From positions 3,482,623 through 3,546,622 of the forward strand of contig NZ_JPON01000001.1 of NCBI RefSeq assembly GCF_000733935.1: 64,000 nucleotides of DNA. The letters are read 5' to 3'. The stretch's first letter is position 1. Every line of letters begins with the position of its first letter. This DNA comes from Methylomarinum vadi (lineage in GTDB: Bacteria > Pseudomonadota > Gammaproteobacteria > Methylococcales > Methylomonadaceae). The notes beneath the pieces are model-generated. The model was not told the origin of the DNA and did no database searches. It saw only the letters and a program-made list of their open reading frames with translations. A program made the position numbers and the translations under genes. Shown one piece after another: positions 708-62,069 of the stretch.

Positions 708-1472
708 ATGTTCGGTTTATCTGACATAAATGCTGTCTTATCCATTTGGGATCGAATCAAAAAAGGGACGGCTGATGATCAAGCGATACAGGCTTCAGAC
801 ACGGTCGCCAGCCGCTTTGTCCGTCTGTTTGAAAAACACGACATCCACCGCAACCAGATTCCGCGCTTTTTCGGTCACGGCTTGACCCTGGATTCCGTTT
901 CCAGCAATGAAAAACTAATCGCGCAATTAAGCCCTGAAATTTTGCACGCGGCGGCGGAACTATTCGCCATTCGCCTGGAATGGTTGGAAGGGGCCGACGA
1001 TCAGCTTTATGACACGCAAAATTTTTACAAGTATCCTGAAGGTTATGGCGAGTTCTTAAAAGAATTGAAATCCAAGGGCGATCACCGGCTAATGATCAAG
1101 CTGGTATTAACCGATTACGGTTATCGTGATGAAAATGCGCTGTTAGTGATCGAGGAAGAAATCGCTAACCTGGGTGATGAGACCATCGTTCGCTATTACC
1201 TCTGCAGTGGTTGGTCGCATAAATACTATAAATGCCGTGCAGACCTCGCCGCTTGCATTGCTATGACCTTAAATCAACAGGGTGGTATTCGAAGTACCTG
1301 GAAACAAGGCCCGATTAACACCTTTTGCGAAGGCAAGGGCTTTATCAGCGATCTTTATTCTTTGCCCTATGCCTGCCGGCGGGACTGGTTACTGCGTAAA
1401 CGCTATGCCAAAGCCGGCTGGCATCCGGAGCACTGGATCTATGATCCCGAAGCCTCACTGCCATTAAGTTAA
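708..1472 (+). CDS. Hypothetical protein, C-terminally truncated by MITE insertion; the stop codon lies inside the MITE TIR and the displaced original 3' end continues at 1600..1744
   Basis: ORF ends YDPEA-SLPLS*. Removing the MITE restores YDPEA-YLDGVDEGDWGKKCALQRWLHYFDKGFLETGCHYRKNAYDDFRQ* in frame. Confidence 0.5.
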   Translation: MFGLSDINAVLSIWDRIKKGTADDQAIQASDTVASRFVRLFEKHDIHRNQIPRFFGHGLTLDSVSSNEKLIAQLSPEILHAAAELFAIRLEWLEGADDQLYDTQNFYKYPEGYGEFLKELKSKGDHRLMIKLVLTDYGYRDENALLVIEEEIANLGDETIVRYYLCSGWSHKYYKCRADLAACIAMTLNQQGGIRSTWKQGPINTFCEGKGFISDLYSLPYACRRDWLLRKRYAKAGWHPEHWIYDPEASLPLS

Positions 1473-1599
1473 CGAAAAGTTTGTCATTCCGGCAGGGAAT
1501 GCCGGAATCCAGTTGCCAAGGATGGCAAGCCGAATCACGTCCCTGTATCCTGGATATCGGCAATCCCTGCCGATATGACGGCTTAACTTAATGGCAGTG
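1456..1599. mobile_element. MITE-like non-autonomous element, 144 bp, with perfect 17-bp terminal inverted repeats (cactgccattaagttaa / ttaacttaatggcagtg) and flanking 11-bp direct duplication tcccgaagcct
   Basis: TIRs and TSD read directly; internal long inverted repeat (ccggcagggaatgccgg ... cggcaatccctgccg) predicts a hairpin. Confidence 0.6.
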
Positions 1600-1814
1600 T
1601 CCCGAAGCCTACCTGGATGGCGTCGATGAAGGCGACTGGGGCAAAAAATGCGCACTGCAAAGATGGTTGCACTATTTCGACAAAGGCTTCCTGGAAACCG
1701 GTTGTCACTATCGTAAAAATGCTTATGACGACTTTAGGCAATGACTACTAAAGTACAAATAATGGGATTAACGCAAGAACATTTTATATTTATGAAAATT
1801 TCACGAGGATATAT

Positions 1815-4022
1815 ATGAATGCTTTAACAGAAGGAACTGGCTCAAAAGTCTGTTGGTTCGTTGGCGCCAGTTATGGCGGTACTAAAGATCAAACCGATCG
1901 CTTTGTTGATAAGGGTGTTTGGGAAAATGGTTATGGCAACAAGTACCTCGATCTGGTGCAAAGCATCAAGCCGGGTGAACGAATCGCTATAAAGTCAACT
2001 TATACCCGTAAGCATAATTTGCCGTTTGATAACCGTGGCCATGTGGCGTCTGTGATGGCCATTAAGGCGATAGGTATTGTCACCAAGAATCATGGTGATG
2101 GCAGAGTTGTTGAGGTTGACTGGACAAAATTCGAGGAACCACGGGAATGGTATTTTTATACCTATAGAAGCACGGTTTGGCGAGTATTGCCTGATGATTG
2201 GTGCGCCGCTGGTTTGATCAGCTTTACCTTTGATGGGCAGCCGCAAGATATCGACCGGTTTAGGAATGATCCGTATTGGTACGAGCGCTTTGGCGATGCG
2301 CCTGATGAGAAAAAGCGCTTTCTGTGGACCAAGTTTTATATGGAAGTGGCCGATAAGTTATTGGATTATCGTGACCGAAGATCAGAATTGGTAGCGGCGT
2401 TAAGGAAAATTGCCGGGCGGGTAGAAGGATTAACAAATTTGCATGATCGTTATAAAAATGGAAATGTCGCTTCTTTACAAGATATTTGTCCATTCACTAC
2501 GATGGGGATTTTCAATAGAGGGATCACCGAAGCCAACCGTAAGGTCATTGCCAGCGAGTTGGCGAAATTTCTAAAAGTGGAAGAGCCTGTGCCAGAGAGT
2601 TTTGAAGGTATTCCTGTCCTCAATAATCTGAAATCCTGGTTCTTTGGTTTTGAAAAGAACCGGGAGCCGGATGACATTGATTCGCTATGGAGAATTTTTG
2701 CAGAGGCTTTAAGGTTTAGCGATTCAGAACACAGCGGTGATGGGTCAGCATTTATCGACGCTTACGATAATGTGACTGATAGATATGGCATTGGCTCAAA
2801 TATTACCATGGGGCTTTATTGGATTCGGCCATGGAGCTTCCCAACCCTCGATAGTCGCTCAAAAAACTATATTGAAAAAAACCTGGGCATAAAAATCGAT
2901 TTGAATGGACCAAAGGGAAATTGTAATGCCTTGGACTATTTATCGTTATTAAATAAATTGGAAGTCCATTTTCAAGAGCCCACTTATCCCGTCCATTCGT
3001 TCCCTGAATTGTCTTTGGCTGCTTGGTCATATCAGGACGCTGAAAAACTCGATGAAAAGCAGGAGGATCTCCCGGATCAAATCAATGAGTCTGACAATAT
3101 AGCCGATTATGAGCCTGTTCCCGTTGTCGTTGAGCCTTACGGTATTGATGACATTTTATCCGATGGTTGTTTCCTTGAAAGGTTACAACTTGAAACAATT
3201 CTGGAGCGGTTAAGAACGAAAAAGAACTTGGTTCTCCAAGGACCGCCTGGTACCGGGAAAACCTGGCTGGCAAAGCGCTTGGCCTATGCTTTGATGACTC
3301 AGAAAAATGTTGGAAACAGACTTCGTGTCGTGCAGTTTCATCCCAATTTATGCTATGAGGATTTTGTTCGGGGTTGGCGCCCCTCGGGCGAAGGTCGTTT
3401 GTCTTTGATCGACGGACCGTTTATGGAAATGGTTCAAGCTGCAGCAAAAGCCCCCAAAGTTAAACACGTTATCGTGATCGAGGAAATCAACCGCGGCAAT
3501 CCTGCGCAAATATTCGGTGAGATGCTTACTTTGTTGGAAGCGGATAAACGTACACCAACCGAAGGCCTGGAATTGTGCTATCGCAGGGAGGATGATGAGC
3601 GCGTTTTTGTACCCGATAATTTATATGTTATCGGCACGATGAATATTGCCGACCGCTCGCTTGCCTTGGTCGATTTAGCGTTAAGACGACGTTTTGCATT
3701 CGTGGATTTGCAGCCAACCCTCGGTCAGCCTTGGCGCGAATGGGTGCATCAGAAATTTGCGATAGCCCTTGAAGTCTTGGACGAAATTGAAAGCCGTATG
3801 GCGGCTTTGAACGAAGACATCGCCAGCGATGCCAGTTTGGGTAAGCAATTTCAAGTGGGGCACAGTTATGTAACGCCGCCAACCGGGGCGAGAATCAATG
3901 ATGCGCGGGAATGGTTTAAACAGATTGTACAGACTGAAATCGGACCTTTACTGGAGGAATATTGGTTCGATGCGAACGATAAGGCGGATAACGCCAAGCA
4001 GCGTTTGTTGGACGGTTTTTAG
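1815..4022 (+). CDS. mcrB: McrB-family AAA+ GTPase subunit of a McrBC modification-dependent restriction system. The N-terminal ~150 aa is a PUA-like (EVE/ASCH-type) putative modified-base reader, followed by ~300 aa of unassigned sequence.
   Basis: GTPase motifs LVLQGPPGTGKTW, VVQFHPNLCYEDFVRGWRP, VIEEINRGNPAQIFGEMLTLLE, LYVIGTMNIADRSLALVDLALRRRFAF; N-terminus resembles the EVE beta-barrel (WFVGASYGG...IKPGERIAIKS...VASVMAIKAIGIVTK). Confidence 0.85.
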   Translation: MNALTEGTGSKVCWFVGASYGGTKDQTDRFVDKGVWENGYGNKYLDLVQSIKPGERIAIKSTYTRKHNLPFDNRGHVASVMAIKAIGIVTKNHGDGRVVEVDWTKFEEPREWYFYTYRSTVWRVLPDDWCAAGLISFTFDGQPQDIDRFRNDPYWYERFGDAPDEKKRFLWTKFYMEVADKLLDYRDRRSELVAALRKIAGRVEGLTNLHDRYKNGNVASLQDICPFTTMGIFNRGITEANRKVIASELAKFLKVEEPVPESFEGIPVLNNLKSWFFGFEKNREPDDIDSLWRIFAEALRFSDSEHSGDGSAFIDAYDNVTDRYGIGSNITMGLYWIRPWSFPTLDSRSKNYIEKNLGIKIDLNGPKGNCNALDYLSLLNKLEVHFQEPTYPVHSFPELSLAAWSYQDAEKLDEKQEDLPDQINESDNIADYEPVPVVVEPYGIDDILSDGCFLERLQLETILERLRTKKNLVLQGPPGTGKTWLAKRLAYALMTQKNVGNRLRVVQFHPNLCYEDFVRGWRPSGEGRLSLIDGPFMEMVQAAAKAPKVKHVIVIEEINRGNPAQIFGEMLTLLEADKRTPTEGLELCYRREDDERVFVPDNLYVIGTMNIADRSLALVDLALRRRFAFVDLQPTLGQPWREWVHQKFAIALEVLDEIESRMAALNEDIASDASLGKQFQVGHSYVTPPTGARINDAREWFKQIVQTEIGPLLEEYWFDANDKADNAKQRLLDGF

Positions 4023-4024
4023 CA

Positions 4025-5143
4025 GTGGTTGCCGTGCCTTCACAAGCTATTCAGGGTGATGAATATTCTGGCGGCTATATCGGAAGAATTCCGGTCAGAA
4101 ATCTGTGGTTGCTGATGTTTTATGCCTCTGACTTGTTTAAGCATCAAGGCGCCGGAAAAATTGAGTTGAAGGATGCGCCCGATGATATTCCTGATTTAGT
4201 CGCGGAGTTATTGATTCGGATCGTTGAAAGACGATTGATGCGCAACTTGAGCTTTGGCTATCGAAATAGGCAAGAAGATCTAAGTCGAGTAAGGGGGCGT
4301 ATTGACCATTTCAGGACAGAACGGCAACAGTTGCTTTTACGGGGAAGGGTGGCCTGTCAATTTGAAGAGTTAACCGTTAATACCCCACGAAACCGATATG
4401 TCCGTGCTGCATTAAACGTTCTGTCGGGGTTGGTGACGCGTCAAGTTCTTGCGCATAAGTGTAGGGCTTTAGCAGGCAATTTATTCCAGATGGGCGTAAC
4501 TGGTGAGAAGCCGAGTCGTGTGCAGGTTTCCACCGATCGATTTGGACGGCATGACAGCGATGACCAGCAAATGGTCGCTGCGGCTCATTTGGCGTTTGAA
4601 TTGGCTTTGCCGACTGAACAGAGTGGAACAAGCCATTTGACGTTACCCGATAAAGAAATTGCTTGGGTAAGGCGTTTGTTTGAAAAGGCTGTCGCCGGGT
4701 TTTATGACGTGGTGTTATCCGAAGCAGGCTGGCGAGTGGATGCGGGTAAGAAGATCAACTGGCAGATCGAGGCAAAGACCGACGGCATAGACCGAATCTT
4801 GCCGTCGATGGTGACCGATATCCAGCTTGAACACAAAGGCACGTCTCAACGGATTGTTATCGATACCAAGTTCAATGCGATAGTTACTTCCGGTTGGTAC
4901 AGGGCGGAAATATTGCGTAGCGGCTATCTTTACCAGGTCTATACCTATCTGAGATCCCAAGAGCGGAGCTGCGATCCAATGTCATTAAATGCATCAGGAA
5001 TTTTGTTACACCCTGCAATTGATAAAATGGCTGATGAATCAGTCGTCATTCAAGGGCATAAGATCCGTTTCGCGACGGTTGATTTAAGTCAGTCGACTCA
5101 CGAGATTCGGGAGCGTTTGTTACAAATTATCGATAGTAAATGA
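4025..5143 (+). CDS. mcrC: McrC nuclease subunit (PD-(D/E)xK) of McrBC, GTG start, translationally coupled to mcrB
   Basis: Lies immediately downstream of mcrB and matches McrC in size; IVIDTKFN matches the McrC D-x-K catalytic block. Confidence 0.8.
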   Translation: MVAVPSQAIQGDEYSGGYIGRIPVRNLWLLMFYASDLFKHQGAGKIELKDAPDDIPDLVAELLIRIVERRLMRNLSFGYRNRQEDLSRVRGRIDHFRTERQQLLLRGRVACQFEELTVNTPRNRYVRAALNVLSGLVTRQVLAHKCRALAGNLFQMGVTGEKPSRVQVSTDRFGRHDSDDQQMVAAAHLAFELALPTEQSGTSHLTLPDKEIAWVRRLFEKAVAGFYDVVLSEAGWRVDAGKKINWQIEAKTDGIDRILPSMVTDIQLEHKGTSQRIVIDTKFNAIVTSGWYRAEILRSGYLYQVYTYLRSQERSCDPMSLNASGILLHPAIDKMADESVVIQGHKIRFATVDLSQSTHEIRERLLQIIDSK

Positions 5144-5316
5144 ATCCATTTCGAGGAAATTAGATGGCATTTAAGGTTACTGAAGATGCGCATAAGCACC
5201 AGCCAAAAGAGCGACTGAAAATCGAACAAAGTACCGGAGCGTTAGCTGATTTCATCGCAAGGAATAAAAGGAAATTTGATTGATCGATCAGTTGTCTTTT
5301 TTCACGGTTTGAAGTC

Positions 5317-6040
5317 ATGTTGGAAATAGTTGAAATCATAAAACCAGCCGATCAAGGACGAACAACTCCTTTTTTATGTAAGGCTTCAGATGATCAACTT
5401 TACTTCGTTAAAGGCTATGCTGCGGCGGTTTCCGGGTTGATTAAGGAATGGATGGGAGCGCATTTGGCACAGGGGTTGGTTTGCCGGTGCCTGGTTTTCA
5501 AATAGCTTATCTTGATCACAGTTTGGTCAACGCTTTTGGGGGAAAGGCGATCACTGAGCTCAAAGGGGGCTATGTTTTTGCCTCAAAGAAGGTCGCTTCG
5601 GTCACCGAGCTGAAATTCGAAACCATTAAAATGCTTTCTGATGATTTGAAAAAGATGTGTTGTTGTTCGATCTATGGACGGAAAATGAAGACCGGACGCT
5701 TTCCGAAAAAGGTGGAAATCCGAATTTGCTATGGAAAAGCGACACATCGGAGTTGTACGTTATCGATCATAATTTGATTTTTGACAGTCATTTCAATCAA
5801 TCCAATTTTTGGGACACGCATGTTTTTCTTCATGCTTTCGAGCAACAAGACGATATTGTAGAAAAATTGGCATTTGAAAATCGGATGAAAAAAGCACTTG
5901 CCTGTTGGCGAGCAGCGTGGGATAAAATGCCCGAAGAATGGGTCGAACTCAATGACGATTTGCAAGCGTTCGATCCTGATTTTCACCTGCAACGTCTAAA
6001 AAATGAAGCTCACGGAGATATTTGGTTAAAGCTGCCATGA
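5317..6040 (+). pseudogene. HipA-like (HipA_C fold) Ser/Thr kinase gene split over three reading frames (5317..5505, 5448..5777, 5657..6040), so two frameshifts
   Basis: LFDLWTENEDRTLSE...LYVIDHNLIFD aligns with the HipA_C catalytic block lfnlliGNtDaHlkN...LaPaYDl. Three consecutive overlapping ORFs run in three frames. Confidence 0.5.
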
Positions 6041-6846
6041 AAAAACAAGTGTGTAAGTACAGCATTATTCGCTTTCAGCCTTATGCTGAAACAGAAGAGT
6101 TCGCCAATATTGGCATCGTGCTGTATGCCACGGCTTCTAAGCGTCTTGAATTTAGACTGCTGGATAGCAAGCAACACGCAAGGATTACGCATTTTTTCGA
6201 TCCTTTGTGTAAAGATGTTTTTGTCCAAACTAATAAAGTCATACGTTGTGAAATTGAGCGGATTAAAAAATTTATGGACAACGCAACAGGCGAAGATATT
6301 GATTTGTATGCCGAGTTAGTTCGTTGTCGTGAAGATATTATTCGTTTTAGCGATAACCGAGTTTTATTCTGCAGTGACCCGGTAAAAACTGTTGATGAAT
6401 TATTTGAGCATTACGTGCATCGTAGCTTTCTTCATGAACCCAGTTATGAGGAAAAAATGAAAAAACAGATGCGCGATTTGCTTGATCGATATGATTTGGG
6501 AGCTAAATACAAAGAAGGCGCTGTCGGAGAACGTGATAAATATGAAGTTCGATTTCCTTTTGTCCGTCAAAATAAAAAGTTAAAGATCATTAAACCTATT
6601 CATTTCACACATGACAAACCCAGCCAGTTAATTGATCATGGTCTTACCTGGCTTGCAAAAGTTCAGCAGCTTGAAAGGCTTCGTTTTGTCAGGCCGGACG
6701 AAATTTTATTTGCTTATGATGGGCCAGAAAAAAGTGAGGGCAATTTGAGTGATGCTTTTTATGAAATCAAAGAGCAAATCGAGCGTGAAGGCATAACCAT
6801 GGCCGATATGGACAGTCAAAATGAGATTATAAGTTTTGCCAGATAA
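6022..6846 (+). CDS. DUF3037-family protein (true start probably Met at ~6037)
   Basis: N-terminal CKYSIIRFQPYAETEEFANIGIVLY matches the DUF3037 signature (YsvvRfvP..EfvNvGvvl). Confidence 0.55.
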   Translation: MVKAAMKKQVCKYSIIRFQPYAETEEFANIGIVLYATASKRLEFRLLDSKQHARITHFFDPLCKDVFVQTNKVIRCEIERIKKFMDNATGEDIDLYAELVRCREDIIRFSDNRVLFCSDPVKTVDELFEHYVHRSFLHEPSYEEKMKKQMRDLLDRYDLGAKYKEGAVGERDKYEVRFPFVRQNKKLKIIKPIHFTHDKPSQLIDHGLTWLAKVQQLERLRFVRPDEILFAYDGPEKSEGNLSDAFYEIKEQIEREGITMADMDSQNEIISFAR

Positions 6847-6910
6847 GCTGTAGAAATGATCATAGCTCCCGGTCAACTCGCTTTGTGTTTTACGATATTT
6901 GATCGATCCA

Positions 6911-7140
6911 TTAGTTATCAGCAAGTGCGTAGCCCAGTCCCTTATAACCAGTCAGGCGTTTGTCTCTCATCCGGTTTAGCATGGGCACATCATCCGCATA
7001 GTCATAAATGAGGACTTCGGTTTTGGCATGATGTAGCCGGTGTAGCCTTCCGACGTACTGGGCTAATGTGCCTTTCCAGGATACCGGTAAGACTAATAAC
7101 AAAGTATCCAGGCGAGCGTCATCAAATCCTTCGCCCAAGT
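6911..7140 (-). pseudogene. 3' fragment (C-terminal ~75 aa, helicase motif VI region) of the IS-disrupted AEP-primase/SF2-helicase gene
   Basis: GEGFDDARLDTLLLVLPVSWKGTLAQYVGRLHRLHH continues the helicase ORF, which ends ...ATGRYL at the other IS junction. Joining across the IS restores GRYLGEGFD. Confidence 0.7.
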
Positions 7141-8885
7141 GAGGCTGTCGTAAAAGCCCCCCAACCAGCTACATACGGTAAAATAACCCTATCCAAACCT
7201 ATTAGAAATAGATCAATGGCAGCCGAAGTAAACATTAGACCCGTCAGGACATTGTATAGCGCCAAGCAATATTCGCTATTCGATGAATGCGAGGTTGAAC
7301 CGTTACCTGAGTTGATCGCTCAATCGATCTCGAGCGAACCGATGGCCCATTTTGAAGCGCCCGACCCGCGCGGCTTATCGATCAACGGTAAACCGCTCGG
7401 CGAACATCTGGAGCACGCCGGCTTAACCATCCCGTTGAAATTGCGCCCCTTCCTGCAATCGCTATCCTTCGCCGAGTTCGAAGCCCGTTATCGGCCCGGC
7501 GGGCGTCCGCCGTATGCGCCACGTGCGATGGTGGGGATTATTCTCTACGGCCTGTTACAAGGCATCAGCAGCCTGCGCGACTTGGAGCGTTTAGCTCGAG
7601 CCGATGTGGGGTGTTGGTGGCTAAGTGGCGGTATCATGCCGGATCACTCAGTCATTGGCCGTTTCGTCCATCAGCATGCCGAATCATTGACGACCGAATT
7701 TTTCGATCAACTGGCGCGTCGTACTTTGAAAGTCACAGGCTCAGGCACGACGACGTTGGCGGGCGACGGTACCGTGATCGAAGCCATGTCCTCCCGGTTT
7801 CAATTGATGAAGGAAGAAGCGCTCAAGCAAGCCTTGGCGCAAGCGCAGGAAGCCGCGCAAGCCAAACCCGACGATGCAGCGGCAAGCAAGCGGTTGAACC
7901 TATTGGAACAAGCCCAAGCCGAGCTAAAGTCTCGCCAGCAAAAACAAGCCGCCAAAGGCAAAGATCCGGCCAAGACCCAAGTACAAAGCAACGAGCCGGA
8001 GGCGGTATTACAGCCGCAAAAGAACTCCAAAGACTTTCGCGGCAGTTATAAACCGTCGGTATTGGCGAACGACAATCGAGTGATCGTGGCTTGCGACGTT
8101 CATCCTTCCAGCGAAACCGAGGTGGTGCCGGGCTTACTGGATCGCGCCCAAGCCATGGGAGGCGTCGAAACAGCTCTGTTCGATGCTGGCTATTTCAGCA
8201 ATGGCGTCTTGGATACTGCTGAGCAACACAACATCGAATTGCTTTGTCCGGAAGGCCAAAGTGAAGGAGACGATTGGAACAAACAATCCAACAAACAAAT
8301 CCCCAAAAGCCGCTTTATTTATCAGGCCGACGACGACACCTATCGCTGTCCGGGGCAACAACGCTTGACTCGCCGTCACACCTGCAAAGGCGGTAAAAGT
8401 GGCCGCGCTTATACCGTCTACGCCTGCGATGCCTGTTCAGACTGCCCGCTGAAATCCCAATGCACGCGTAGCGAGAGTGGTCGCACCCTCAAACGCTATG
8501 ACAGCGATACACAAAAAGAAGCCCTGCGCCTGAAAATGGACCAGCCCGAACCTCGGCAACGCTATCGACAGCGGCAGGCCATGGTGGAGCCCGTCTTCAG
8601 TCAGCTACGCGGTCGCCAAGGTTTGAATCGCTTTCGCCGTAAAGGTTTGGCGGGTGTCAAAGTAGAGTTCGCCTTGCACGCCATGGCTTACAATCTGAGC
8701 CGCGCCTTAGTGGCAGCTCTTTTTCGTGCTTTATATCATTGGCTTAGCCGGTTTATGAGCTCGTTTGACCGAATGGTCGACATTTGGCTGAGTTACACTA
8801 CTGACTTGCCAACTTCGCCGACCGTGGAAAATACGGCCGGTTTCCAGTGGTAAATCAAAGAAATTGGGGTTTTACGACGCCCTCC
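7141..8885 (+). mobile_element. IS1182-family (IS5 superfamily) insertion sequence, copy 1, 1745 bp, imperfect ~20-bp TIRs (gaggctgtcgtaaaagcccc / ggggttttacgacgccctcc), 4-bp TSD AAGT
   Basis: Ends were defined by comparison with copy 2 at 40166..41910. The TSD aagt is read on both flanks. Confidence 0.8.
7216..8853 (+). CDS. IS1182-family DDE transposase (545 aa); the ORF-track start 7066 is an artefactual extension into the flank
   Basis: Has an InsH-like N-terminal domain (APRAMVGIILYGLLQGISSLRDLERLARADVGCWWLSGG) and a C-terminal zinc-ribbon (CPGQQ...CKGG...CDACSDCPLKSQC) before the last catalytic block. Copy 2 starts at the equivalent MAAE. Confidence 0.85.
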   Translation: MAAEVNIRPVRTLYSAKQYSLFDECEVEPLPELIAQSISSEPMAHFEAPDPRGLSINGKPLGEHLEHAGLTIPLKLRPFLQSLSFAEFEARYRPGGRPPYAPRAMVGIILYGLLQGISSLRDLERLARADVGCWWLSGGIMPDHSVIGRFVHQHAESLTTEFFDQLARRTLKVTGSGTTTLAGDGTVIEAMSSRFQLMKEEALKQALAQAQEAAQAKPDDAAASKRLNLLEQAQAELKSRQQKQAAKGKDPAKTQVQSNEPEAVLQPQKNSKDFRGSYKPSVLANDNRVIVACDVHPSSETEVVPGLLDRAQAMGGVETALFDAGYFSNGVLDTAEQHNIELLCPEGQSEGDDWNKQSNKQIPKSRFIYQADDDTYRCPGQQRLTRRHTCKGGKSGRAYTVYACDACSDCPLKSQCTRSESGRTLKRYDSDTQKEALRLKMDQPEPRQRYRQRQAMVEPVFSQLRGRQGLNRFRRKGLAGVKVEFALHAMAYNLSRALVAALFRALYHWLSRFMSSFDRMVDIWLSYTTDLPTSPTVENTAGFQW

Positions 8886-11080
8886 AAGTAGCGACCGGTT
8901 GCAATTAAAACCCGTTCTTCTTGTTCGGGGATATTATCGAGTGTTGACTGGATGCTTTTTCGTTGTTTGGTTGTTTCGCCACCTTGCAGCACGACAACAT
9001 GTTTGACAAATGTTCGGATTCTTTCGGCCAATACAGAAACATGCTGTTTACGCTCGGTCAGTACTAGCGGTGATCGTCCTTCCTGCAACAATTTTTCTAC
9101 ATCATCAATGATCAGCTGATTGCGTTTTTCATCCTGGATCAACGCTTGGTATATTTGATGAATCGCTAAATGTGAATCAACATCTTCTGTTGAAGGTAAT
9201 ATAAACTCGGTATCCCTGAATACCAACCTGTGCTCAAATGGCCTGGCTATCGCTTGTTTTTTCGCATCGACTTTATAGCGTACTGGGCCGCATTGCATGG
9301 TAACGATCGGATGATGCCCATCTTTACGAACCAATGTTGCCGACAAGCCGAGAACGTATTTCGCTTTACAGGCTTTAGCTACATTTTCAAAATTCACTGC
9401 GGACAAATGATGACACTCATCAAAAATGACCTGACCATAATTTGCGACGACGTCATCGATTTGTTGTTGCCGGAACAAGCTTTGCATAACCGCTACATCG
9501 ATAATACCCGTCGGTTTGCGCTTGCCCCCGCCAATCCGTCCTACCTTTTTTTGGTCTATCGTTAAAAACTGTGCAATTCGTTCAAGCCATTGATCAAGTA
9601 ATTGTCGCCGGTGAACAATGATTAAGGTATTCACCTGTCTTCGTGCTAAAAGATATAAAGCGATGACCGTTTTGCCGAACGCCGTTGTTGCCGATAATGT
9701 ACCGGTATCGTGCTGCAATAAACAATCCACTACGGTTTGTTGTTCAGGCAACAACTCTCCCTGAAAATGTAGATCTTCGATTTTGTTACCGGCAAAACGT
9801 TCATCCTGTAGATCCACCTGCACGTTCAATTCCTTACATAACGACAGCAGCTCTTCAAGGCAACCTCTTGGTATGGCAATATGCTGCGAATAGTTTTCTG
9901 CACAGGCAATGATTCTGGGTTTATCAAACGTCGGCAATCTCATCGCCTGGGCTTTATAAAACTCCGGGTTCTGAAATGCCGCCAAACGAATAATTTTATT
10001 TTGCAGGCTTGGCGGTAAGTTTTGTTTTTCGATGAATAATTGGCTAGCCTGAGTGACATGCAATGATGCCGGTAACTTATCTGACTGAATTGTAATCTGG
10101 GTTTTACGTGAAGGGGGTAACGTCCAAGGTTCGCCATCATCTTCTGCAACCGGCATACGAACGCCAAGCAAGTCACCATTGCTCTCCGCTTGTTCAATCA
10201 GTTGTCTCGTCTCAATGGGAGATAAACGTTTCAGTGTGGATAAAAACGCCCATTGATCTTCATAAGGCTTGAAATGTTCATCGACAAATACGCTATTCTT
10301 TTGATCACGCGCTTTTTTCTGTAATGGCAAAGCAATCAGGTTCCCAAACCCTCCTTTTGGCAGAGTATCCTGATTTGGAAAAAAGCGATCATACGAATCG
10401 AACCCGATTTCCGGGTATTCCGCCATCGCTTGTGTTAATAACAACGCGGCTAATTTCCGAGCTTCAACCGCAAAAATCGCTTGGGTAAAAAACACCCAAA
10501 TATGTGCGCCCTGTCCGGAGCGGGAAATTTCAATGGCATGCGGAACTTGTTTTTGTTGGCAGATGCGTGAGAAGGCCTGAACATCGGATTGCCATTGTGC
10601 TTTGTCAAAATCCACCGCGACAAACCAACAACGCTCATCCGGCAACATGGGATATACTCCCATCACAAAATCAGTATTTGAGTGATAGTCAGTTCCTGAA
10701 AGATGGCTCTGAATGACCAGGTCCGTTACCGGCAGAAATGCCTTGTGTTGACACGCGCTGCATTTGACTCTGGGTTTGTCACAGATGCCTTTTTTCCATT
10801 CATTACCACAAACAGGCGAATAACCTGACTTTCCGGTTTTGCTGTTTTCCCAGCGTCGTGGATAGACATCTTCCCGGCCTTTAAACAGCTCGCGAAATAA
10901 ACGAATTTTCTCGGCGTTAGAAGATAATTGGGTGACTGGGGCTGAAGAAGTAGGTGATTTTAATGATTTGAGATCGTTGAGTTGTCGCTGTAACGATGCT
11001 CTTTTGGTATCTAAAGCATGAATCTCTTTTTCTAAAGCGGCAATTTTTTGGTTAAGGTCATTATTCATACTTTCTTTCAT
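8886..11080 (-). pseudogene. 5' part of a gene for an N-terminal coiled-coil + archaeo-eukaryotic primase (AEP) domain + SF2 (DEAD/DEAH-like) helicase fusion. It is interrupted by the IS1182 copy and resembles proteins annotated as TOTE conflict-system primase/helicase or as island primase-helicases.
   Basis: AEP motifs WFVAVDFD (DxD) and SRSGQGAHIWVFF (SGxGxH); helicase motifs TTAFGKT (Walker A), DECHHLSA (motif II), LGLSATL (III); and motif VI QYVGRLHR on the other side of the IS. Confidence 0.7.
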
Positions 11081-11164
11081 CCGAAAGAATATTATTCGAC
11101 AATAACCTACCAGGTCGGATTACGGCTAATCTATCCAATGAGCTGTGAACAAAATTGATTGCAT

Positions 11165-11584
11165 TCATTCTGAAAGCGGGTTTATCAATTGTACTCCGGT
11201 ATTTTCAAAGTCTTTGGTATTTCGCGTAACAACGGTTAAATCATAGATTATCCCGGTAGCAGCAATCAATTTATCTAAAGAGTGCTCGTGGTTAGGGACG
11301 CGTAATTTTCCCCAAAGTAAAGCAATTTCGCTATCAATGGACAGGATGTTGTCTTGATATTGATCGAGAATAGTATTGAGCCAGTTTTCCAACCGTTTAC
11401 CTTGAGCTATGTCGCCACGGTGGAAAATCAGATCGACGCCTCTGCGCAATTCCCCTATCGTAATGGACGAGATATAAACAGGTATATTCTCCTGAATGAC
11501 TTGATCGAAAAATTCTCGCACACCGGAATCGGCTTTATCACCTTTCCTAAGTTCGCTGATGATGTTGGTGTCAATCAAATACAT
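11165..11584 (-). CDS. vapC: VapC/FitB-like PIN-domain toxin (start at MYLIDTNII; ORF-track start 11635 is an upstream extension)
   Basis: PIN N-terminal signature YLIDTNIISE; 14-nt overlap with the upstream antitoxin gene. Confidence 0.8.
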   Translation of the reverse strand: MYLIDTNIISELRKGDKADSGVREFFDQVIQENIPVYISSITIGELRRGVDLIFHRGDIAQGKRLENWLNTILDQYQDNILSIDSEIALLWGKLRVPNHEHSLDKLIAATGIIYDLTVVTRNTKDFENTGVQLINPLSE

Positions 11585-11807
11585 TGGATTCGCTGGTGTC
11601 GTCATCGACACGCTGAAAATCCGTATCCATGCCAACGGCAGGAATGCTGGCTAACGCTTCAGCAAAGCTTTTACGTTGCGGTTTCATCAGAACTTCAGCC
11701 AAAATGGCTCGGTGTTCGGCTTCGGTCGAGCGGTGGTGTTTAACGGCTCGTTCCTTTAGCGCAGTAACGATCGATTCATCCAGGTTTCTAACAACTAGGC
11801 TTGGCAT
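11571..11807 (-). CDS. vapB: VapB/FitA-like antitoxin (Arc/MetJ or StbC-type)
   Basis: MPSLVVRNLDESIVTALKERAVKHHRSTEAEHRAIL is the classic plasmid-stability antitoxin N-terminus. Lies upstream of the PIN gene and overlaps it. Confidence 0.7.
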   Translation of the reverse strand: MPSLVVRNLDESIVTALKERAVKHHRSTEAEHRAILAEVLMKPQRKSFAEALASIPAVGMDTDFQRVDDDTSESNVFD

Positions 11808-12391
11808 GACGGGCTCCTAGAACTTGATTGCTATCAATGCTATCATTTTTTTATGTGTATTCAAACTCGGTCGAATGAGATAGTCCAAAGAATAAGATAT
11901 TGCTGAGCTATTCATATGCTGATTTCATGTAATTCAAGTGCTTAACTCGAATCTGGCGTGTGTAATTTTTGTGTAATTGTGCAAAGAAAAGTAGCAATTT
12001 TGAAGGAACTTCAAGGATAGCAGAGGTATAAAAAATTTATAGTATATTTTTTAAAATCAATGAATTAAGAATATTAAAGAACATCCGTGAATTCGAGTGA
12101 AATGCAGGGCACCCGTGTTCAATAAATGTAAGTCCGTTTCGATAATTGCTTGTGGAAATTATAAGTCATCATAGCAAAGGAAGCTCTAGATGGAGCATGT
12201 TGTAATTCTTTATGTCTCAATTCATCGCATGCGTATTTCAGATATTCTGGATCTAACTCCGACGCTGTTGCTTGCGTGAATTTGCATTAACATAAATTAG
12301 GCGTGAATATCCGAAATTCACCACTGGCGAAAAATTGGAATCCGCCTTTATTCAACACGTTGCTAGCGAAAAGTGCGGATAAGTTCAACGG

Positions 12392-12913
12392 CTAATCCGG
12401 TTCAGCTAAAATCGACCGAATGGTTTCGAGAGTCATCATCAGCGTCATCGGCTGGATCGTAGATTCGACAAACCCGCGCGAGAGATAAAATTGTTTGGCG
12501 GGTTCTGAAAGCGCGTGAACTAAAATCGCAAACACCCCAGTATCTTTCGAGACGTTTACAGCACGCAGCAGGGCATCACGCAGCAGTTCCTGGCCGATGC
12601 CTTGATTGTGATAGCGTTGATCGACAGCAAGTCTGCCCAACAAGATAACGGGTAGCGGGTCAGGCATATTTCGCCGCATCGACTTGGGTGATGCTTCGTG
12701 ACTGATTGCGCCTGCCGACAGACAATAATAACCGATCACCTTGTTGTCATTGCAAACGACAAAACAGCGAGAAGCGCCTGCCGCTTGGTTTTTCAACGCG
12801 CGTTTTTGCAGCCAGTTGTTTAACGATATCTCACCGCTATCAAAATCCGTTATGTCATGATCTTCGGTGATAGGCGCTGGTGCGGAAAGAAGGAGATCTG
12901 CCATCAATCCCAA
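12392..12913 (-). CDS. GNAT-family acetyltransferase toxin (TacT/KacT-like)
   Basis: GNAT motif (RLAVDQRYHNQGIGQELLRDAL); overlaps the upstream DUF1778 gene by 10 nt. Confidence 0.75.
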   Translation of the reverse strand: MGLMADLLLSAPAPITEDHDITDFDSGEISLNNWLQKRALKNQAAGASRCFVVCNDNKVIGYYCLSAGAISHEASPKSMRRNMPDPLPVILLGRLAVDQRYHNQGIGQELLRDALLRAVNVSKDTGVFAILVHALSEPAKQFYLSRGFVESTIQPMTLMMTLETIRSILAEPD

Positions 12914-13182
12914 GGTGCTTTTTTCTTCAGTAAACGACGTAATTTATCCGTGGGCGGCAGTGGTTTATCCAACAATGCTTGAAATTGCGCGAACGTGCCC
13001 GCATCGACAGCAAAAAAAGCTTGGTCGAGCAAAACATCTTCAGCTTCTCGGCACGCGGCTTCAAGCATGAATTCTGAGCGACTACGGCCTAAACGGCTGG
13101 CGGCTTGATCAATCAAGTCGCGTTGTTTAGCTTTAGCCCGGATATTGATCGAGACAGCTTCATTGGAATGACTATGTTGCAT
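12904..13182 (-). CDS. DUF1778 (RHH) antitoxin partner of the GNAT toxin (TacA/KacA-like)
   Basis: SINIRAKAKQRDLIDQAASRLGRSRSEFMLEAA is the DUF1778 ribbon-helix-helix signature. Confidence 0.75.
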   Translation of the reverse strand: MQHSHSNEAVSINIRAKAKQRDLIDQAASRLGRSRSEFMLEAACREAEDVLLDQAFFAVDAGTFAQFQALLDKPLPPTDKLRRLLKKKAPWD

Positions 13183-34455: not shown

Positions 34456-35106
34456 ATGAACGATAGTCTTGTGACAATATTGGGAAGTTCGTATTTTGAA
34501 CCAATTAGTGCATTGCTTGAAAAGCTGGAGAAACACGAGAGCAATATCTCTAACCAAGTTCAATCTGGCTATTACGAAAAAGGGTTTGCTGCATCGATCT
34601 GTATTCTGAGTGTGGTCTGCCTGGAGTCATACGTAATGAGAGTTAGGTATATTAATTCTGCCAACCAAGATCATATTGATAGAACGCCTGTTGTTAGTTA
34701 CTTAAAGTCACTATATCCAGATTTTCCGTTTGAAAACGAATTACTGGAATTACATATATTGAGAGACCTCCTGGCCCACAATCACCTATGGGAAATATCA
34801 TATTCATTTAACGAAGATGATGAAATGGAAATTAGTGAGGTAGAAAAAAGAAGTTCTGGTGATAAAAAATATCGGCAACGTGTAGATACGGAAAATCACG
34901 TAACAAAAACTCTAGGCCTGAACGTGAACCCAATTAAGGTAGGGGCTTCAGACGTTAAGTTGGTCCTTCAGACGATGTGGAAAATTCTACTTTTTCTTGA
35001 GAGCAAGAATAGAAATCAATGCTACGTATCTCATCTGCGCGCGGTATATAAGGGCACACTAAGGCAGTTTGGTGAAATCATTGGTATGCCAGAAACATGC
35101 ACATAA
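34456..35106 (+). CDS. Hypothetical protein (216 aa), AT-rich, partner of the preceding gene; its TAA stop coincides with the first bases of the IS91-family element
   Basis: ORF with an SD; no recognisable motif. Confidence 0.4.
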   Translation: MNDSLVTILGSSYFEPISALLEKLEKHESNISNQVQSGYYEKGFAASICILSVVCLESYVMRVRYINSANQDHIDRTPVVSYLKSLYPDFPFENELLELHILRDLLAHNHLWEISYSFNEDDEMEISEVEKRSSGDKKYRQRVDTENHVTKTLGLNVNPIKVGASDVKLVLQTMWKILLFLESKNRNQCYVSHLRAVYKGTLRQFGEIIGMPETCT

Positions 35107-35415
35107 CGAATAAGGTTAGATTGTAATCGCGGAGCGAGCCACAATCTGAACCGTTTGTTGGACAAGCCCGGTATTCGGAGGGAGCGTTATATAAGAAAAT
35201 AGCTTTTCGAAGGATTGGGGGATGTGTTGGCCCATTTCAAGCGTTGACGTCGATAAACGGGCTGAAATGGGCGTGATGCTGATCATCACACCCGGAATTT
35301 CGGATTTTAGCGGCATTTTGCCCTGAATTCAGACCGAACGAAAGCCTCGGTGCTAAAATGCCCGATGATCGGTTTGGGTCAGTGAGAAATGCCGCTTACA
35401 TAACCGGTTTTGCCT

Positions 35416-36513
35416 CTACGCTTTGGTCGAATTCAATGCCATGACAGCCGAAGAACCGAGAATGCGCGTTTTGATAATCTGCAGGGTTCCACCACAACAT
35501 GGGCATTGGAGTTTCGGGCGGGGCCTGAGCCAAGCGATAGCACGATTGGGATTGACGCCGAGCAAGACTTGCAGCAGACGAATCAGCCGTTTGCTGTTGG
35601 GGTGCAAAAAGCCGAAGTTGCGAGTCCGCCTAAAGCCTTTGGGCAGAACATGGCGGAGCATCAGCCACAGAAACTTCACGCCGGGTAGTGTTCGAGTCTG
35701 CCACTTTTTGGTTTTGCTGTCCTGGTAACGGAAGGTTACTTGGCCATCTCGGCAGGCAATAATGTCCTTTTCCTGGATAACGCCCTTATAGAGATAACGT
35801 CCCAGATAAACCAAGGCTTTATCGCCGCGTCCGACCGACTTGACGTCAACGACCCATTGTTGCGGATAGTAGTCAGGCAATGTCAAACCGGCCTGCGAGA
35901 TCGCTTCAAGCAATTTGGCCCGAAACACTTTGGCCACTGCCTTGTGATTGAACAAATAGCCTTTCCGGCCCTTTTTACCCTGTTTGGTGCGCCACAGTCG
36001 TTTATCAGGATCGATGGCGGCCGCCGGCATCACCAAGTGTACATGCGGATGGTAATCCAATCGGCGGGAATGGGTATGCAACACAGCAATAGCACCGGCA
36101 TTGCCCTGAAGCTGTTGATCGTTGCGGGTGAAGGTGTTGACGGTATCCCAACTACAGCGGATCAGCAGATCATACAACGTACGTTGCTGTTGCCAGGCCA
36201 ACGGCCTGAGTTCTTTGGGCAAAGTAAACGTCAGCAAAAAATATTCGGCCGGCACCTGCTTCTGCAACTGCCTTTCCAGCCATTGTTGCGATTCGTGCGA
36301 CTGGCAATGCGGGCAGCTGCGATGGCCGCAGGAATGCGGCACCAAGCGTTGCCGATCGCAATCATCGCATTGCGCCAACATCACAGGGCCTTGCGACGTG
36401 CGGCAGTGTTTCATCGCGGCCAGCGCCTGACGCTGACTGGGTGACAAGCGACCCTGGTAAGCGACCAGAAACTCGGCTTCGAAGGTTTGGATGATGGCGG
36501 AAAGCAAGATCAT
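35416..36513 (-). CDS. IS91-family HUH/Y2 transposase
   Basis: HUH motif [18 protein letters not shown]; Y2 motif YLGRYLYKG; N-terminal Cys/His zinc-binding cluster. Confidence 0.85.
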
Positions 36514-37417
36514 TTGACCGCCCCCCAGTCGATGTCGAAGCCATTCATTAAGGCATTAATCAACTGGCCGGTATTTTGATTCGTGCCGTCGGTCAGGTGA
36601 GTATAGCGGGCAGTGGTGAGGATACTGTGGTGACCGAGGATTTTCTGCACTTCCAGTAGATCGACGCCCGCTTCAATCAAATGTGTGGCATAGCTATGCC
36701 GCAGACAGTGCGGGGTAATCTTTTTTTTAAACCGCAGTCTTGCGCGACTTGGCGCAGAGCCTTTTGCACGCCACCGCGATCCAAAGGGCTCTGCGCGCGC
36801 TGCGCGCCCTTCAAACCGCCATGGCGATTGGGAAACAACATGACCGGATGCCGGTGAACTTGCCAGAAGCGGCGTAGCAAATCCAGGGTGGCAGCCGGCA
36901 ACGGCACCAGTCTATCCTTATTGCCCTTGGCATCTCGGATATGCACGCGTTGGCGACCGGCATCGATATCCCCAACCTCAAGACGCAATCCCTCGCCGAG
37001 GCGCAAACCTAGACTGTAGAGCGTGAAAAAGAACACCCGGTAACTGAGAATACGCGTGGACTGGAAGATACACCGCGCCTCGTCGACAGTGACGATATCC
37101 GGCAAACGTTGCGCCTTCGGCGGCTTGACCAACTGCGGCGCGACCCAAGGCTTGCGCAGTACATGGGTGTAATAAAACTTGAGACCGTACAGGTCCAACT
37201 TGACCGCACTCCAAGAATGCGACTCCAGCAAATCGGTGAAATAATCGGTCAGTTGCTGTTCGGTCAACGCATTGATGTCTTCGTTGAAATACTGGCCGAT
37301 ACGTCGAATCGCACGGGCATAGGCCTCGATCGTCTTGGGCTGCAACCCTTTAAGTTTGAGGTGTTTCAGATGGCTTTGATAGTTTTGCTTGAAATGGGGT
37401 TCGAATGATGTTGTCAT
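36510..37417 (-). CDS. Tyrosine recombinase (phage-integrase family) of the IS91-family element. Full length requires a -1 frameshift in an A8 run at ~36721-36728. The zero-frame product (36677..37417) stops 14 codons after the run.
   Basis: The -1 frame after the A-run reads [46 protein letters not shown], which are integrase box II and the catalytic Tyr. Its TGA overlaps the transposase ATG (ATGA). Confidence 0.65.
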
Positions 37418-37621
37418 TGTCGCGTAACCTCATGATTCGTCATGGAATAATCCCTCTTAAAAGAGGGCGTGAGATTACATTTTATAAATTACCGGCTACT
37501 GCCGCTTTTCTCCGCGTTAGCGGCTTCGTCCAACACGGCATTCCACCCGACCAAAAACCGCTACGCGGTTTTCCTCGGGTGAGCTTGGCGTTAGCTTTGA
37601 AATTACGAATTTGAGGCGTCA

Positions 37622-59595: not shown

Positions 59596-59951
59596 CGTTA
59601 TCCGGCGGATGAACGTGTATCATCGGGATAATTGAGTCCTAACGAATAAGGTTAGATTGTAATCGCGGAGCGAGCCACAATCTGAACCGTTTGTTGGACA
59701 AGCCCGGTATTCGGAGGGAGCGTTATATAAGAAAATAGCTTTTCGAAGGATTGGGGGATGTGTTGGCCCATTTCAAGCGTTGACGTCGATAAACGGGCTG
59801 AAATGGGCGTGATGCTGATCATCACACCCGGAATTTCGGATTTTAGCGGCATTTTGCCCTGAATTCAGACCGAACGAAAGCCTCGGTGCTAAAATGCCCG
59901 ATGATCGGTTTGGGTCAGTGAGAAATGCCGCTTACATAACCGGTTTTGCCT

Positions 59952-61953: not shown

Positions 61954-62069
61954 TGTCGCGTAACCTCATGATTCGTCATGGAATAATCCCTCTTAAAAGA
62001 GGGCGTGAGATTACATTTTATAAATTACCGGCTACTGCCGCTTTTCTCCGCGTTAGCGGCTTCGTCCAA

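What the first reader, a model, noticed from the sequence alone, without database searches (positions are those of the whole stretch)
5164..6846. Decayed HipA-like kinase gene next to an intact DUF3037 gene, preceded by a 39-codon ORF, directly downstream of mcrBC
5317..6040 encodes a HipA_C-like kinase core (LFDLWTENEDRT...LYVIDHNLIFD) that needs two frameshifts to read through. The DUF3037 partner (6022..6846) is intact. HipA-like/DUF3037 pairs recur as a conserved two-gene unit of unknown function and may be toxin–antitoxin or defence-like. A short ORF (5164..5283, MAFKVTEDAHKHQPKERLKIEQSTGALADFIARNKRKFD) with a good SD sits where a HipB-like regulator would sit. Two frameshifts in 720 nt point to either a genuine pseudogene, with the kinase inactivated while its partner is retained, or a sequencing problem. 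Location beside McrBC in a defence island argues for a conflict-related role.
Basis: partly seen in the sequence, partly recalled or inferred. Interest (0 to 1): 0.6.

Follow-up and report, generated by a model that had tools for sequence, protein, structure and literature searches.

The report
Broken HipAD phage-defence toxin gene
This is a copy of the recently validated two-gene HipA-like kinase/DUF3037 ("HipAD") anti-phage toxin–antitoxin system in a Methylomarinum vadi defence island, in which two one-base deletions have killed the toxin kinase while the antitoxin gene stays intact; it is a decayed member of a known system rather than something new.

Summary
Three ORF pieces (5317-5505, 5448-5777, 5657-6040) hit consecutive parts of Pfam HipA_2 (PF20613, not HipA_C). 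The next gene is an intact DUF3037 gene, whose true start is ATG 6037, overlapping the kinase stop as ATGA.

The pair is homologous end to end with the annotated "HipA toxin/HipD antitoxin" of E. coli phage PhiR5_1. It also matches PADLOC PDC-M66A/B. This family is the experimentally validated defence system DS-6/HipAD.

Two near-identical metagenome contigs (96-98.7% nt identity) carry the same mcrB-mcrC-39aa ORF-kinase-DUF3037 locus with an intact 241-aa kinase. Against them the window lacks one T (TTT>TT, 5476-5477) and one A (A6>A5, 5649-5653).

These are probably real mutations. I found no other frameshift among the suspect gene pairs I tested in the window. The genome was sequenced with Illumina plus PacBio at 272x. 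A real IS insertion also splits the neighbouring TOTE gene.

Kinase loss with DUF3037 kept recurs: in Methylomarinum sp. Ch1-1, in a Nitrotoga MAG, and in about 9 of 67 metagenome loci.

The 39-codon ORF is not a HipB-like regulator. It is the relic 3' end of a DUF932-family gene.

Novelty is low and interest modest.

The parts
5317..6040 (+). Pseudogene of the HipA_2-family Ser/Thr kinase, the toxin HipA of a HipAD/DS-6/PDC-M66 system. It is split into three frames: 5317-5505, 5448-5777 and 5657-6040.
   Evidence: Pfam HipA_2 hits to consecutive profile segments. The repaired reading gives 241 aa, 98% identical to the intact P0001. All family-invariant residues (K32, E44, D119, D126, R127, N135, N137, D151, N153) are still encoded.
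5474..5477 (+). Frameshift site 1. The window reads GGTT where intact relatives read AGTTT, so one T is lost and an adjacent A has changed to G.
   Evidence: Alignment with L001 and L086.
5649..5653 (+). Frameshift site 2. The window has an A5 run where intact relatives have A6.
   Evidence: Alignment with L001 and L086.
6037..6846 (+). Intact DUF3037 gene (269 aa), the HipD-type antitoxin partner. Its ATG overlaps the kinase TGA as ATGA.
   Evidence: Pfam DUF3037 and PADLOC PDC-M66B at 2.7e-20. It is 27% identical over 264 aa to the annotated HipD of phage PhiR5_1, E 6e-33. It is an exact match to WP_031435061.1 of Methylomarinum vadi.
5149..5283 (+). Relic of the 3' end of a DUF932-family gene. 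It contains the 39-codon ORF 5164-5283, with an in-frame TAG at 5161-5163 just before that ORF's ATG.
   Evidence: A search of 1.84 billion proteins found that the ORF matches only C-terminal tails of longer proteins (P0243-P0245), plus a 41-aa ORF. P0243 hits DUF932. tblastn with P0244 residues 350-398 matches 5149-5277 across the stop.
1815..4022 (+). mcrB-like GTPase (735 aa), intact.
   Evidence: Pfam AAA_5; NCBIfam McrB.
4025..5143 (+). mcrC (372 aa), intact and full length.
   Evidence: NCBIfam McrC, profile 4-350 of 353, E 5e-122.
7141..8884 (+). IS1182-like insertion sequence (1744 bp). Its terminal inverted repeats are GAGGC(T)GTCGTAAAA, and the 5-bp target duplication CAAGT lies at 7136-7140 and 8885-8889.
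   Evidence: Uninterrupted target sequence in L086. Pfam DDE_Tnp_1_6 and DUF772.
6911..11080 (-). AEP-TOTE primase-helicase conflict-system gene, convergent with the DUF3037 gene. The IS splits it into 8885-11080 and 6911-7140.
   Evidence: Pfam AEP-TOTE, ResIII and DEAD. L086 shows the continuous gene.

Best explanation
The locus is a HipAD-type (DS-6, PADLOC PDC-M66) toxin-antitoxin anti-phage system in a defence island of Methylomarinum vadi.

In intact systems, a ~240-aa HipA_2-family protein kinase is the toxin. The DUF3037 protein encoded by the overlapping downstream gene neutralises it. Phage infection is thought to free the kinase, which stops growth and aborts the infection. That mechanism comes from published work on homologues, not from anything shown here.

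In this genome two independent one-base deletions have inactivated the kinase. The first stop comes after 62 codons. The N-lobe (K32, E44) and the catalytic core (D126, N137, D151) now lie in different frames. The system is therefore dead as a defence (inference). The DUF3037 antitoxin gene survives intact as an orphan.

This is the expected direction of decay for a toxin-antitoxin pair. Losing the toxin is harmless, while losing the antitoxin first would be lethal.

The 39-codon ORF upstream is not part of the system. It is the leftover 3' end of a DUF932-family gene, cut off where the mcrBC segment ends.
For: - Family identity: HipA_2 and DUF3037 Pfam hits. PDC-M66A at 1.2e-11 for the intact allele and PDC-M66B at 2.7e-20.
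- Homology to a named system: end-to-end with the annotated HipA toxin (33% id, E 1e-40) and HipD antitoxin (27% id, E 6e-33) of phage PhiR5_1. That pair has the same gene order and the same 4-nt overlap.
- Experiments on homologues: a kinase catalytic mutant abolishes defence in DS-6 (PMC13092281). Kinase deletion abolishes defence and DUF3037 deletion is toxic (PMC12548924).
- Conserved pair: 74 of 75 downstream ORFs are DUF3037.
- Derived state: L001 and L086 carry the same locus with an intact 241-aa kinase. The only 2 indels in 5660 aligned nt both fall inside the kinase. By chance that would happen with p ~0.016.
- Sequence quality: every suspect adjacent-ORF pair tested gave full-length domain matches. 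There are 45 homopolymers of 6 or more bases in 32 kb of intact long ORFs, none frameshifted. The genome was sequenced with Illumina plus PacBio at 272x (PMC4722281).
- Real decay next door: an IS with a target-site duplication splits the TOTE gene.
- Recurrent kinase loss with DUF3037 kept: Methylomarinum sp. Ch1-1 retains only the last ~22 kinase codons; Nitrotoga locus L027 has a nonsense mutation; 9-10 of 67 metagenome loci have a disrupted kinase.
Against: - No reads were available, so assembly error is not excluded. One of the two sites is a homopolymer (A6>A5).
- Kinase dN/dS against L086 is 0.20 on only 7 substitutions. That shows no sign of long neutral decay, so the frameshifts are either very recent or artefactual.
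- Defence and toxicity were never tested for this orthologue, which is only 27-33% identical to the validated E. coli system.
- Pfam finds no DUF1829 domain, which DS-6B is reported to carry.
- The excess of kinase disruptions over DUF3037 disruptions is significant only if short DUF3037 forms are not counted as disrupted: p 0.006 versus 0.09-0.14. It also compares two different collections.
Confidence: 0.75

Rival explanations
1. Sequencing or assembly artefact. The real M. vadi gene would be an intact 241-aa kinase, and the two missing bases would be consensus errors.
For: One site is an A-run (A6>A5). PacBio RS data were part of the assembly. Substitution divergence of the kinase from intact relatives is tiny, with no excess of non-synonymous change.
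Against: The other site is only TTT>TT and comes with an adjacent substitution. Illumina data and 272x coverage were used. No frameshift was found in any other gene tested in 64 kb, despite 45 runs of 6 or more bases in intact long ORFs. Two errors falling in one 724-nt gene is improbable (p ~0.016).
Confidence: 0.15
2. Regulated expression. The kinase would be made by programmed ribosomal frameshifting or slipped-strand phase variation at the two sites, keeping a dangerous toxin at very low dose.
For: One site is a short A-run, and toxins are sometimes kept under tight translational control.
Against: The closest relatives have a plain single ORF at both sites, so the shifts are not conserved. 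Two separate +1 events would be needed. A5 and TT are far too short for efficient slippage (established knowledge). Disruptions in other loci lie at different positions and include nonsense codons and deletions.
Confidence: 0.03
3. The 39-codon ORF is a functional third component, either a small regulator or antitoxin in the HipB position or a mini-protein co-opted from a DUF932 tail.
For: It has an ATG and a GAGGA Shine-Dalgarno sequence. It is kept open in L001 and L086 with one amino-acid change. A separate 41-aa ORF of the same tail exists elsewhere (P0242).
Against: It was not found upstream of any other kinase/DUF3037 pair inspected. The validated HipAD of PhiR5_1 has no such gene. It has no Pfam domain. 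Its homology is to the extreme C-terminus of ~400-aa proteins and appears to run across a stop codon, though that upstream extension is only four codons. Conservation in relatives that are 96-99% identical carries no information.
Confidence: 0.1

Closest known systems
HipAD (HipA toxin / HipD antitoxin) of E. coli prophage PhiR5_1, GenBank PV340545.1. This equals DS-6 of DefensePredictor (Science 2026, PMC13092281) and was first reported by Brenes & Laub 2025 (cited there; that paper was not held in the library).
   Same: The Pfam architecture is the same: a HipA_2 kinase of ~240-250 aa followed by a DUF3037 protein of ~270 aa. Gene order and the 4-nt overlap are the same. Homology runs end to end (E 1e-40 and 6e-33).
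   Different: Identity is only 27-33%. This copy is chromosomal, beside mcrBC, rather than next to cI in a lambdoid prophage. The kinase here is frameshifted twice. The DUF1829 domain reported for DS-6B was not detected by Pfam, either here or in the PhiR5_1 HipD.
PADLOC phage-defence candidate PDC-M66
   Same: Both HMMs hit: PDC-M66A at 1.2e-11 on the intact allele P0001, and PDC-M66B at 2.7e-20 on the window protein.
   Different: PADLOC would call only the B component in this window, because each kinase piece is weak or silent on its own.
HipA-like/DUF3037 pair linked to Retron-Sda1 (PMC12548924)
   Same: It is the same two-gene module. Experiments there show the kinase is required for defence and that deleting DUF3037 is toxic.
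   Different: No retron reverse transcriptase or ncRNA lies next to the pair in this window. None was looked for beyond the immediate neighbours.
Canonical HipBA (E. coli HipA/HipB)
   Same: The logic is the same: a protein-kinase-fold toxin neutralised by a cognate partner.

Membership tests
HipAD / DS-6 / PDC-M66 | Kinase gene of Pfam family HipA_2 (PF20613), ~240-250 aa | tested here: met
   The three pieces cover profile positions 1-237. The repaired product is 241 aa and 98% identical to the intact P0001. PDC-M66A scores 1.2e-11 on P0001.
HipAD / DS-6 / PDC-M66 | Kinase open reading frame intact, so a toxin can be made | tested here: not met
   Two 1-nt deletions are present and the first stop is at 5503-5505. 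The locus is therefore a decayed member, not a working one.
HipAD / DS-6 / PDC-M66 | DUF3037 gene immediately downstream on the same strand, overlapping the kinase gene | tested here: met
   The gene spans 6037-6846 with an ATGA overlap. Pfam DUF3037 and PDC-M66B hit it. The same arrangement is seen in 74 of 75 homologous loci.
HipAD / DS-6 / PDC-M66 | Homology to a named or validated HipA/HipD pair | tested here: met
   BLASTP against PhiR5_1 HipA gives E 1e-40 and against HipD gives E 6e-33, with near full-length alignments.
HipAD / DS-6 / PDC-M66 | Second domain DUF1829 in the partner, as reported for DS-6B | tested here: not met
   No DUF1829 hit at E<=1 in the window protein, nor at E<=0.01 in PhiR5_1 HipD. 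The C-terminal half is nevertheless conserved with HipD.
HipAD / DS-6 / PDC-M66 | Kinase-dependent phage defence, with kinase toxicity neutralised by the DUF3037 protein | not testable with these tools
   Known only from experiments on homologues (PMC13092281, PMC12548924).
Canonical HipBA | HipA_C / Couple_hipA kinase domains | tested here: not met
   Only HipA_2 is hit. A profile search of PDB sequences finds nothing. The fold search is led by PI4KII-alpha and CtkA, not HipA.
Canonical HipBA | Upstream HTH antitoxin/repressor HipB | tested here: not met
   The upstream ORF is 39 aa, has no Pfam domain, and is a DUF932-tail relic.
PD-(D/E)xK nuclease fold (DUF3037 protein) | Restriction-endonuclease-like alpha-beta-beta-beta-alpha-beta core | tested here: met
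PD-(D/E)xK nuclease fold (DUF3037 protein) | Catalytic D...(D/E)xK acidic residues conserved | tested here: inconclusive
   The residues conserved in the C-terminal half are E138 (nearly invariant) and P174, F175, K186 and P187 (invariant). A PF...IK pattern where PD...ExK would be expected suggests an inactive binding domain. No residue-level superposition was available, so this is not confirmed.
McrBC | AAA+ GTPase McrB plus McrC endonuclease subunit | tested here: met
   AAA_5 and NCBIfam McrB hit residues 439-732. NCBIfam McrC gives E 5e-122 at full length.

The most novel reading that the evidence does not exclude
The DUF3037/HipD protein may have a role of its own that keeps it under selection after its kinase is lost. 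It could act as an anti-addiction or cross-neutralising antitoxin against incoming HipA_2 kinases, including phage-borne HipAD. Alternatively it could act as a nucleic-acid-binding sensor through its degenerate PD-(D/E)xK-like domain.

The hints are as follows. Two Methylomarinum lineages lost the kinase independently but kept a full-length DUF3037 gene. dN/dS between the two is 0.10. About 13% of DUF3037-anchored metagenome loci have a broken kinase.
Probability: 0.15. Interest if true: 0.5.

Novelty: new member of a known kind. Interest (0 to 1): 0.27.

Why it matters
Taken alone, this is an annotation point: a dead HipAD system in a methanotroph defence island.

It has modest wider value in four ways:
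- It extends the validated E. coli HipAD/DS-6 family to Methylococcales, with a natural intact and broken allele pair (P0001 versus the window) that differ by two bases. That is a ready-made toxicity control.
- The surveys give comparative support for the toxin-antitoxin model. Toxin loss with antitoxin retention recurs through independent frameshifts, nonsense codons, deletions and IS insertions.
- The DUF3037 partner model resembles restriction-endonuclease-fold proteins that appear to have lost their catalytic acids. This gives a concrete hypothesis for how HipD might bind nucleic acid.
- It shows that PADLOC-style callers will miss such decayed systems and see only an orphan B component.

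Tried and rejected
- The first genome-contig scan, with the single DUF3037 protein, found nothing. The profile-based scan worked.
- In one search my DUF3037 query was translated one base out of frame. The 'duf' rows of that call are not valid evidence and were replaced. The kinase, McrB, McrC and small-ORF rows are unaffected.
It was redone with database proteins.
- PDB sequence searches with the kinase and DUF3037 profiles gave no meaningful hit.
- The promoter and terminator scan of 4800-7200 was no better than shuffles and placed no promoter upstream of the kinase. I therefore make no statement about transcription units.
- Idea rejected: the 39-aa ORF as a detached C-terminus of McrC. McrC matches its NCBIfam model at full length, and the ORF's relatives are DUF932-family proteins, not McrC.
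- Relaxed selection on the kinase was tested with dN/dS against L086. The result was uninformative, with only 7 substitutions.
- The primary HipAD paper (Brenes & Laub 2025) is not in the library. It is cited only through PMC13092281 and the GenBank annotation.
- The origin of runs SRR29270392 and SRR29270393 was not established.

Full report
**Observation**

Region 5317-6040 holds three overlapping ORF pieces in frames 1, 3 and 2. Each hits Pfam HipA_2 (PF20613) over consecutive parts of the 240-position profile:
- 5317-5505 matches profile 1-51 (E 3.8e-17).
- 5448-5777 matches profile 45-109 (E 2.1e-9).
- 5657-6040 matches profile 112-237 (E 9.1e-33).

Adding one base at each junction gives a 241-aa protein. 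It keeps every residue that is invariant in 40 homologues: K32, E44, D119, D126, R127, N135, N137, D151 and N153.

The following gene is an intact DUF3037 protein. Homologues start MxKxxCxYxIxRF, so the real start is ATG 6037. That ATG overlaps the kinase stop as ATGA. McrB and McrC lie directly upstream and both are full length.

**Source and sequence quality**

The DUF3037 protein is an exact match to WP_031435061.1 of Methylomarinum vadi, on a 4,335,162-nt contig. The IT-4 genome was assembled from Illumina plus PacBio RS data at 272x into one contig (PMC4722281).

In the window, every suspicious pair of adjacent or overlapping same-strand ORFs that I tested gave full-length domain matches. 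There are 32.4 kb of intact ORFs of at least 300 aa. They contain 45 homopolymers of 6 or more bases and 160 of 5 or more, with no frameshift.

**The intact allele**

Two Logan contigs carry the same locus:
- L001 (SRR29270392, 1917 nt) is 98.7% identical.
- L086 (SRR29270393, 5771 nt) is 96% identical.

Both have the order mcrB, mcrC, 39-codon ORF, kinase, DUF3037, and the 3' end of a convergent helicase gene. Both have an uninterrupted 241-aa kinase.

Over 5660 aligned bases there are 224 differences but only two indels, and both lie in the kinase. The relatives read GGAGTTTGG where the window reads GGGGTTGG (5472-5479). The relatives have A6 where the window has A5 (5649-5653). Two random indels would both land in this 724-nt gene with p ~0.016. 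Homologue consensus at these sites (AFGLP; KKD/E) shows that the window state is the derived one.

The same comparison shows a real structural mutation next door. A 1744-bp IS1182-like element (7141-8884) with a CAAGT target duplication splits an AEP-TOTE primase-helicase gene that is continuous in L086.

Taken together, I put a genuine, recent pseudogene at about 0.8 and an assembly artefact at about 0.15. Kinase dN/dS against L086 is 0.20, but it rests on only 7 substitutions and says only that the event is young.

**What the pair is**

- PADLOC models PDC-M66A and PDC-M66B hit the intact kinase allele (1.2e-11) and the window DUF3037 protein (2.7e-20).
- A tblastn search of phage records found E. 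coli phage PhiR5_1 (PV340545.1). Its depositors annotate adjacent genes as "HipA toxin" (249 aa) and "HipD antitoxin" (275 aa), with a 4-nt overlap, next to cI.
- Those two genes are HipA_2 and DUF3037 by Pfam. They align almost end to end with the Methylomarinum pair: 33% identity at E 1e-40, and 27% over 264 aa at E 6e-33.
- The literature describes the same architecture as DS-6, renamed HipAD. A catalytic kinase mutant loses defence, and AlphaFold3 predicts binding between the A and B proteins and between B and DNA (PMC13092281).
- The module next to Retron-Sda1 is the same pair. There, deleting the kinase abolishes defence and deleting DUF3037 is toxic (PMC12548924).

The mechanism I adopt is therefore taken from homologues. 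The kinase is the toxin, DUF3037 is the antitoxin, and phage infection releases the kinase to cause abortive infection. None of this was shown for this orthologue.

**Structure**

The intact kinase model is confident (pLDDT 91.8, pTM 0.90). It is a protein-kinase-like fold. The closest solved structures are PI4KII-alpha, H. pylori CtkA and actin-fragmin kinase (E 3e-5 to 2e-4). HipA itself is not in the top 50, and profile searches of PDB sequences find nothing. "HipA-like" is therefore a loose label.

**Surveys**

Anchored on the kinase, I took the 80 best loci from species-representative genomes. In 74 of 75 loci the ORF overlapping or following the kinase is DUF3037. The exceptions and disrupted cases were:
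- L027 (Candidatus Nitrotoga) has an in-frame stop in the kinase and an intact DUF3037.
- L021 has both genes decayed.
- L043 has a nonsense codon in DUF3037.
- L058 and L074 carry only the N-terminal DUF3037 domain.

Among the shorter kinase homologues:
- Methyloprofundus sedimenti has the kinase truncated where a transposase gene (HTH_38/rve) overlaps its 3' end, and no DUF3037 within 6 kb.
- One metagenome lineage has a kinase with an altered start plus a short DUF3037.

In the complete genome of Methylomarinum sp. Ch1-1 (CP157743.1) only the last ~22 codons of the kinase remain. They sit in front of an intact DUF3037 gene that is 89.5% identical at the nucleotide level to the window gene. 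dN/dS between the two is 0.10.

Anchored on DUF3037, I took 80 metagenome loci, of which 67 could be evaluated. Of these, 57 have an intact-looking kinase upstream. Nine or ten have a frameshifted, nonsense-bearing or truncated kinase in front of a full-length DUF3037, and the lesions lie at different positions.

Kinase decay with DUF3037 retention is thus recurrent and independent, as expected for a toxin-antitoxin pair. The excess over DUF3037 disruptions gives p = 0.006 if only clear DUF3037 lesions are counted, and 0.09-0.14 if short forms are also counted. It also mixes two collections, so I treat it as suggestive only.

**The 39-codon ORF**

It has no Pfam domain. It was not found upstream of any other kinase locus; the neighbours there are unrelated genes.

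An exhaustive HMMER search of 1.84 billion representative proteins gave five hits. These were the ORF itself, a 41-aa ORF, and the extreme C-termini of proteins of 112, 219 and 399 aa. The 219-aa protein hits DUF932 at E 4.9e-9, and the 399-aa protein hits it weakly.

tblastn with the 399-aa protein aligns its residues 350-398 to window 5149-5277. This begins 6 nt after the mcrC stop. It runs four codons upstream of the ATG, across the TAG at 5161-5163, and includes a 4-codon deletion. McrC itself is complete.

The ORF is best read as the eroded 3' end of a DUF932-family gene that was cut at the junction with the mcrBC segment. It is not a HipB-like regulator. The validated phage HipAD has no such gene either. 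I leave about 0.1 for a co-opted small protein.

**Context**

The island contains, in order:
- the end of a type I R-M S subunit (45-518);
- an unassigned 254-aa ORF;
- mcrBC;
- the dead HipAD pair;
- the IS-split TOTE gene;
- a PIN/FitA-like toxin-antitoxin pair;
- a TacT/TacA-like toxin-antitoxin pair.

McrBC adjacency is specific to this lineage. Other Methylococcales copies nevertheless also sit beside type I R-M genes, methylase/HNH genes and AAA_15 genes.

**Verdict**

This is a decayed new member of a known and recently validated system. Its defence and TA reading was right but is now established knowledge. Its suggestion about the small ORF is not supported.

Interest is low to modest. 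The useful by-products are the natural intact and broken allele pair, the recurrent toxin-first decay pattern, and the nuclease-like fold of the DUF3037 partner.

Noticed in passing
window 7141-8884 (flanks 7136-7140 and 8885-8889): An IS1182-like element (DDE_Tnp_1_6 plus DUF772) with a 5-bp CAAGT target duplication is inserted into an AEP-TOTE primase-helicase conflict-system gene. The gene is uninterrupted in metagenome contig L086.
   Followed up: yes
window 1483-7140 versus L086: Divergence along the locus is mosaic. Synonymous divergence is 0.21 in mcrB, 0.13 in mcrC (mostly in its 5' half), 0.03 in the kinase and 0.05 in DUF3037. This suggests recombination between related islands.
   Followed up: partly
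L088 (Methylomarinum sp. Ch1-1, CP157743.1) 7934-8810 and 10546-11996: An orphan DUF3037 gene is preceded by only the last ~70 nt of the kinase. It lies beside IS66 fragments and about 1.7 kb from a canonical hipBA pair (HTH_31 plus Couple_hipA/HipA_C).
   Followed up: partly
window 35104-37534 and 59640-62070: There are two 100% identical 2431-bp copies of a mobile element. Each encodes an IS91-type Y2 transposase (365 aa) and a tyrosine-recombinase-like protein (246 aa).
   Followed up: partly
window 11165-11807 and 12392-13182 (minus strand): Two further toxin-antitoxin pairs look intact: PIN/VapC with a FitA-like RHH antitoxin, and a GNAT TacT-like toxin with a TacA-like antitoxin.
   Followed up: no
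window 708-1472 (+): A 254-aa ORF between the type I S-subunit fragment and mcrB has no Pfam, NCBIfam or PADLOC family.
   Followed up: no
window ~431-703 and ~1464-1655: Spurious ORFs on both strands translate to similar peptides (…DSGIPCRND…, …PAGMT…). This suggests short interspersed REP-like repeats flanking the 708-1472 ORF. It was not analysed.
   Followed up: no
L058, L074, L084/L085: Some loci pair an apparently intact kinase with a DUF3037 protein of only ~133-147 aa, the N-terminal domain alone. The N-domain may therefore be enough for neutralisation.
   Followed up: partly
window 43790-44067 and 44501-44778: A 278-nt internal direct repeat (71% identity) lies inside the 994-aa ORF 43042-46026. 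It was not examined.
   Followed up: no
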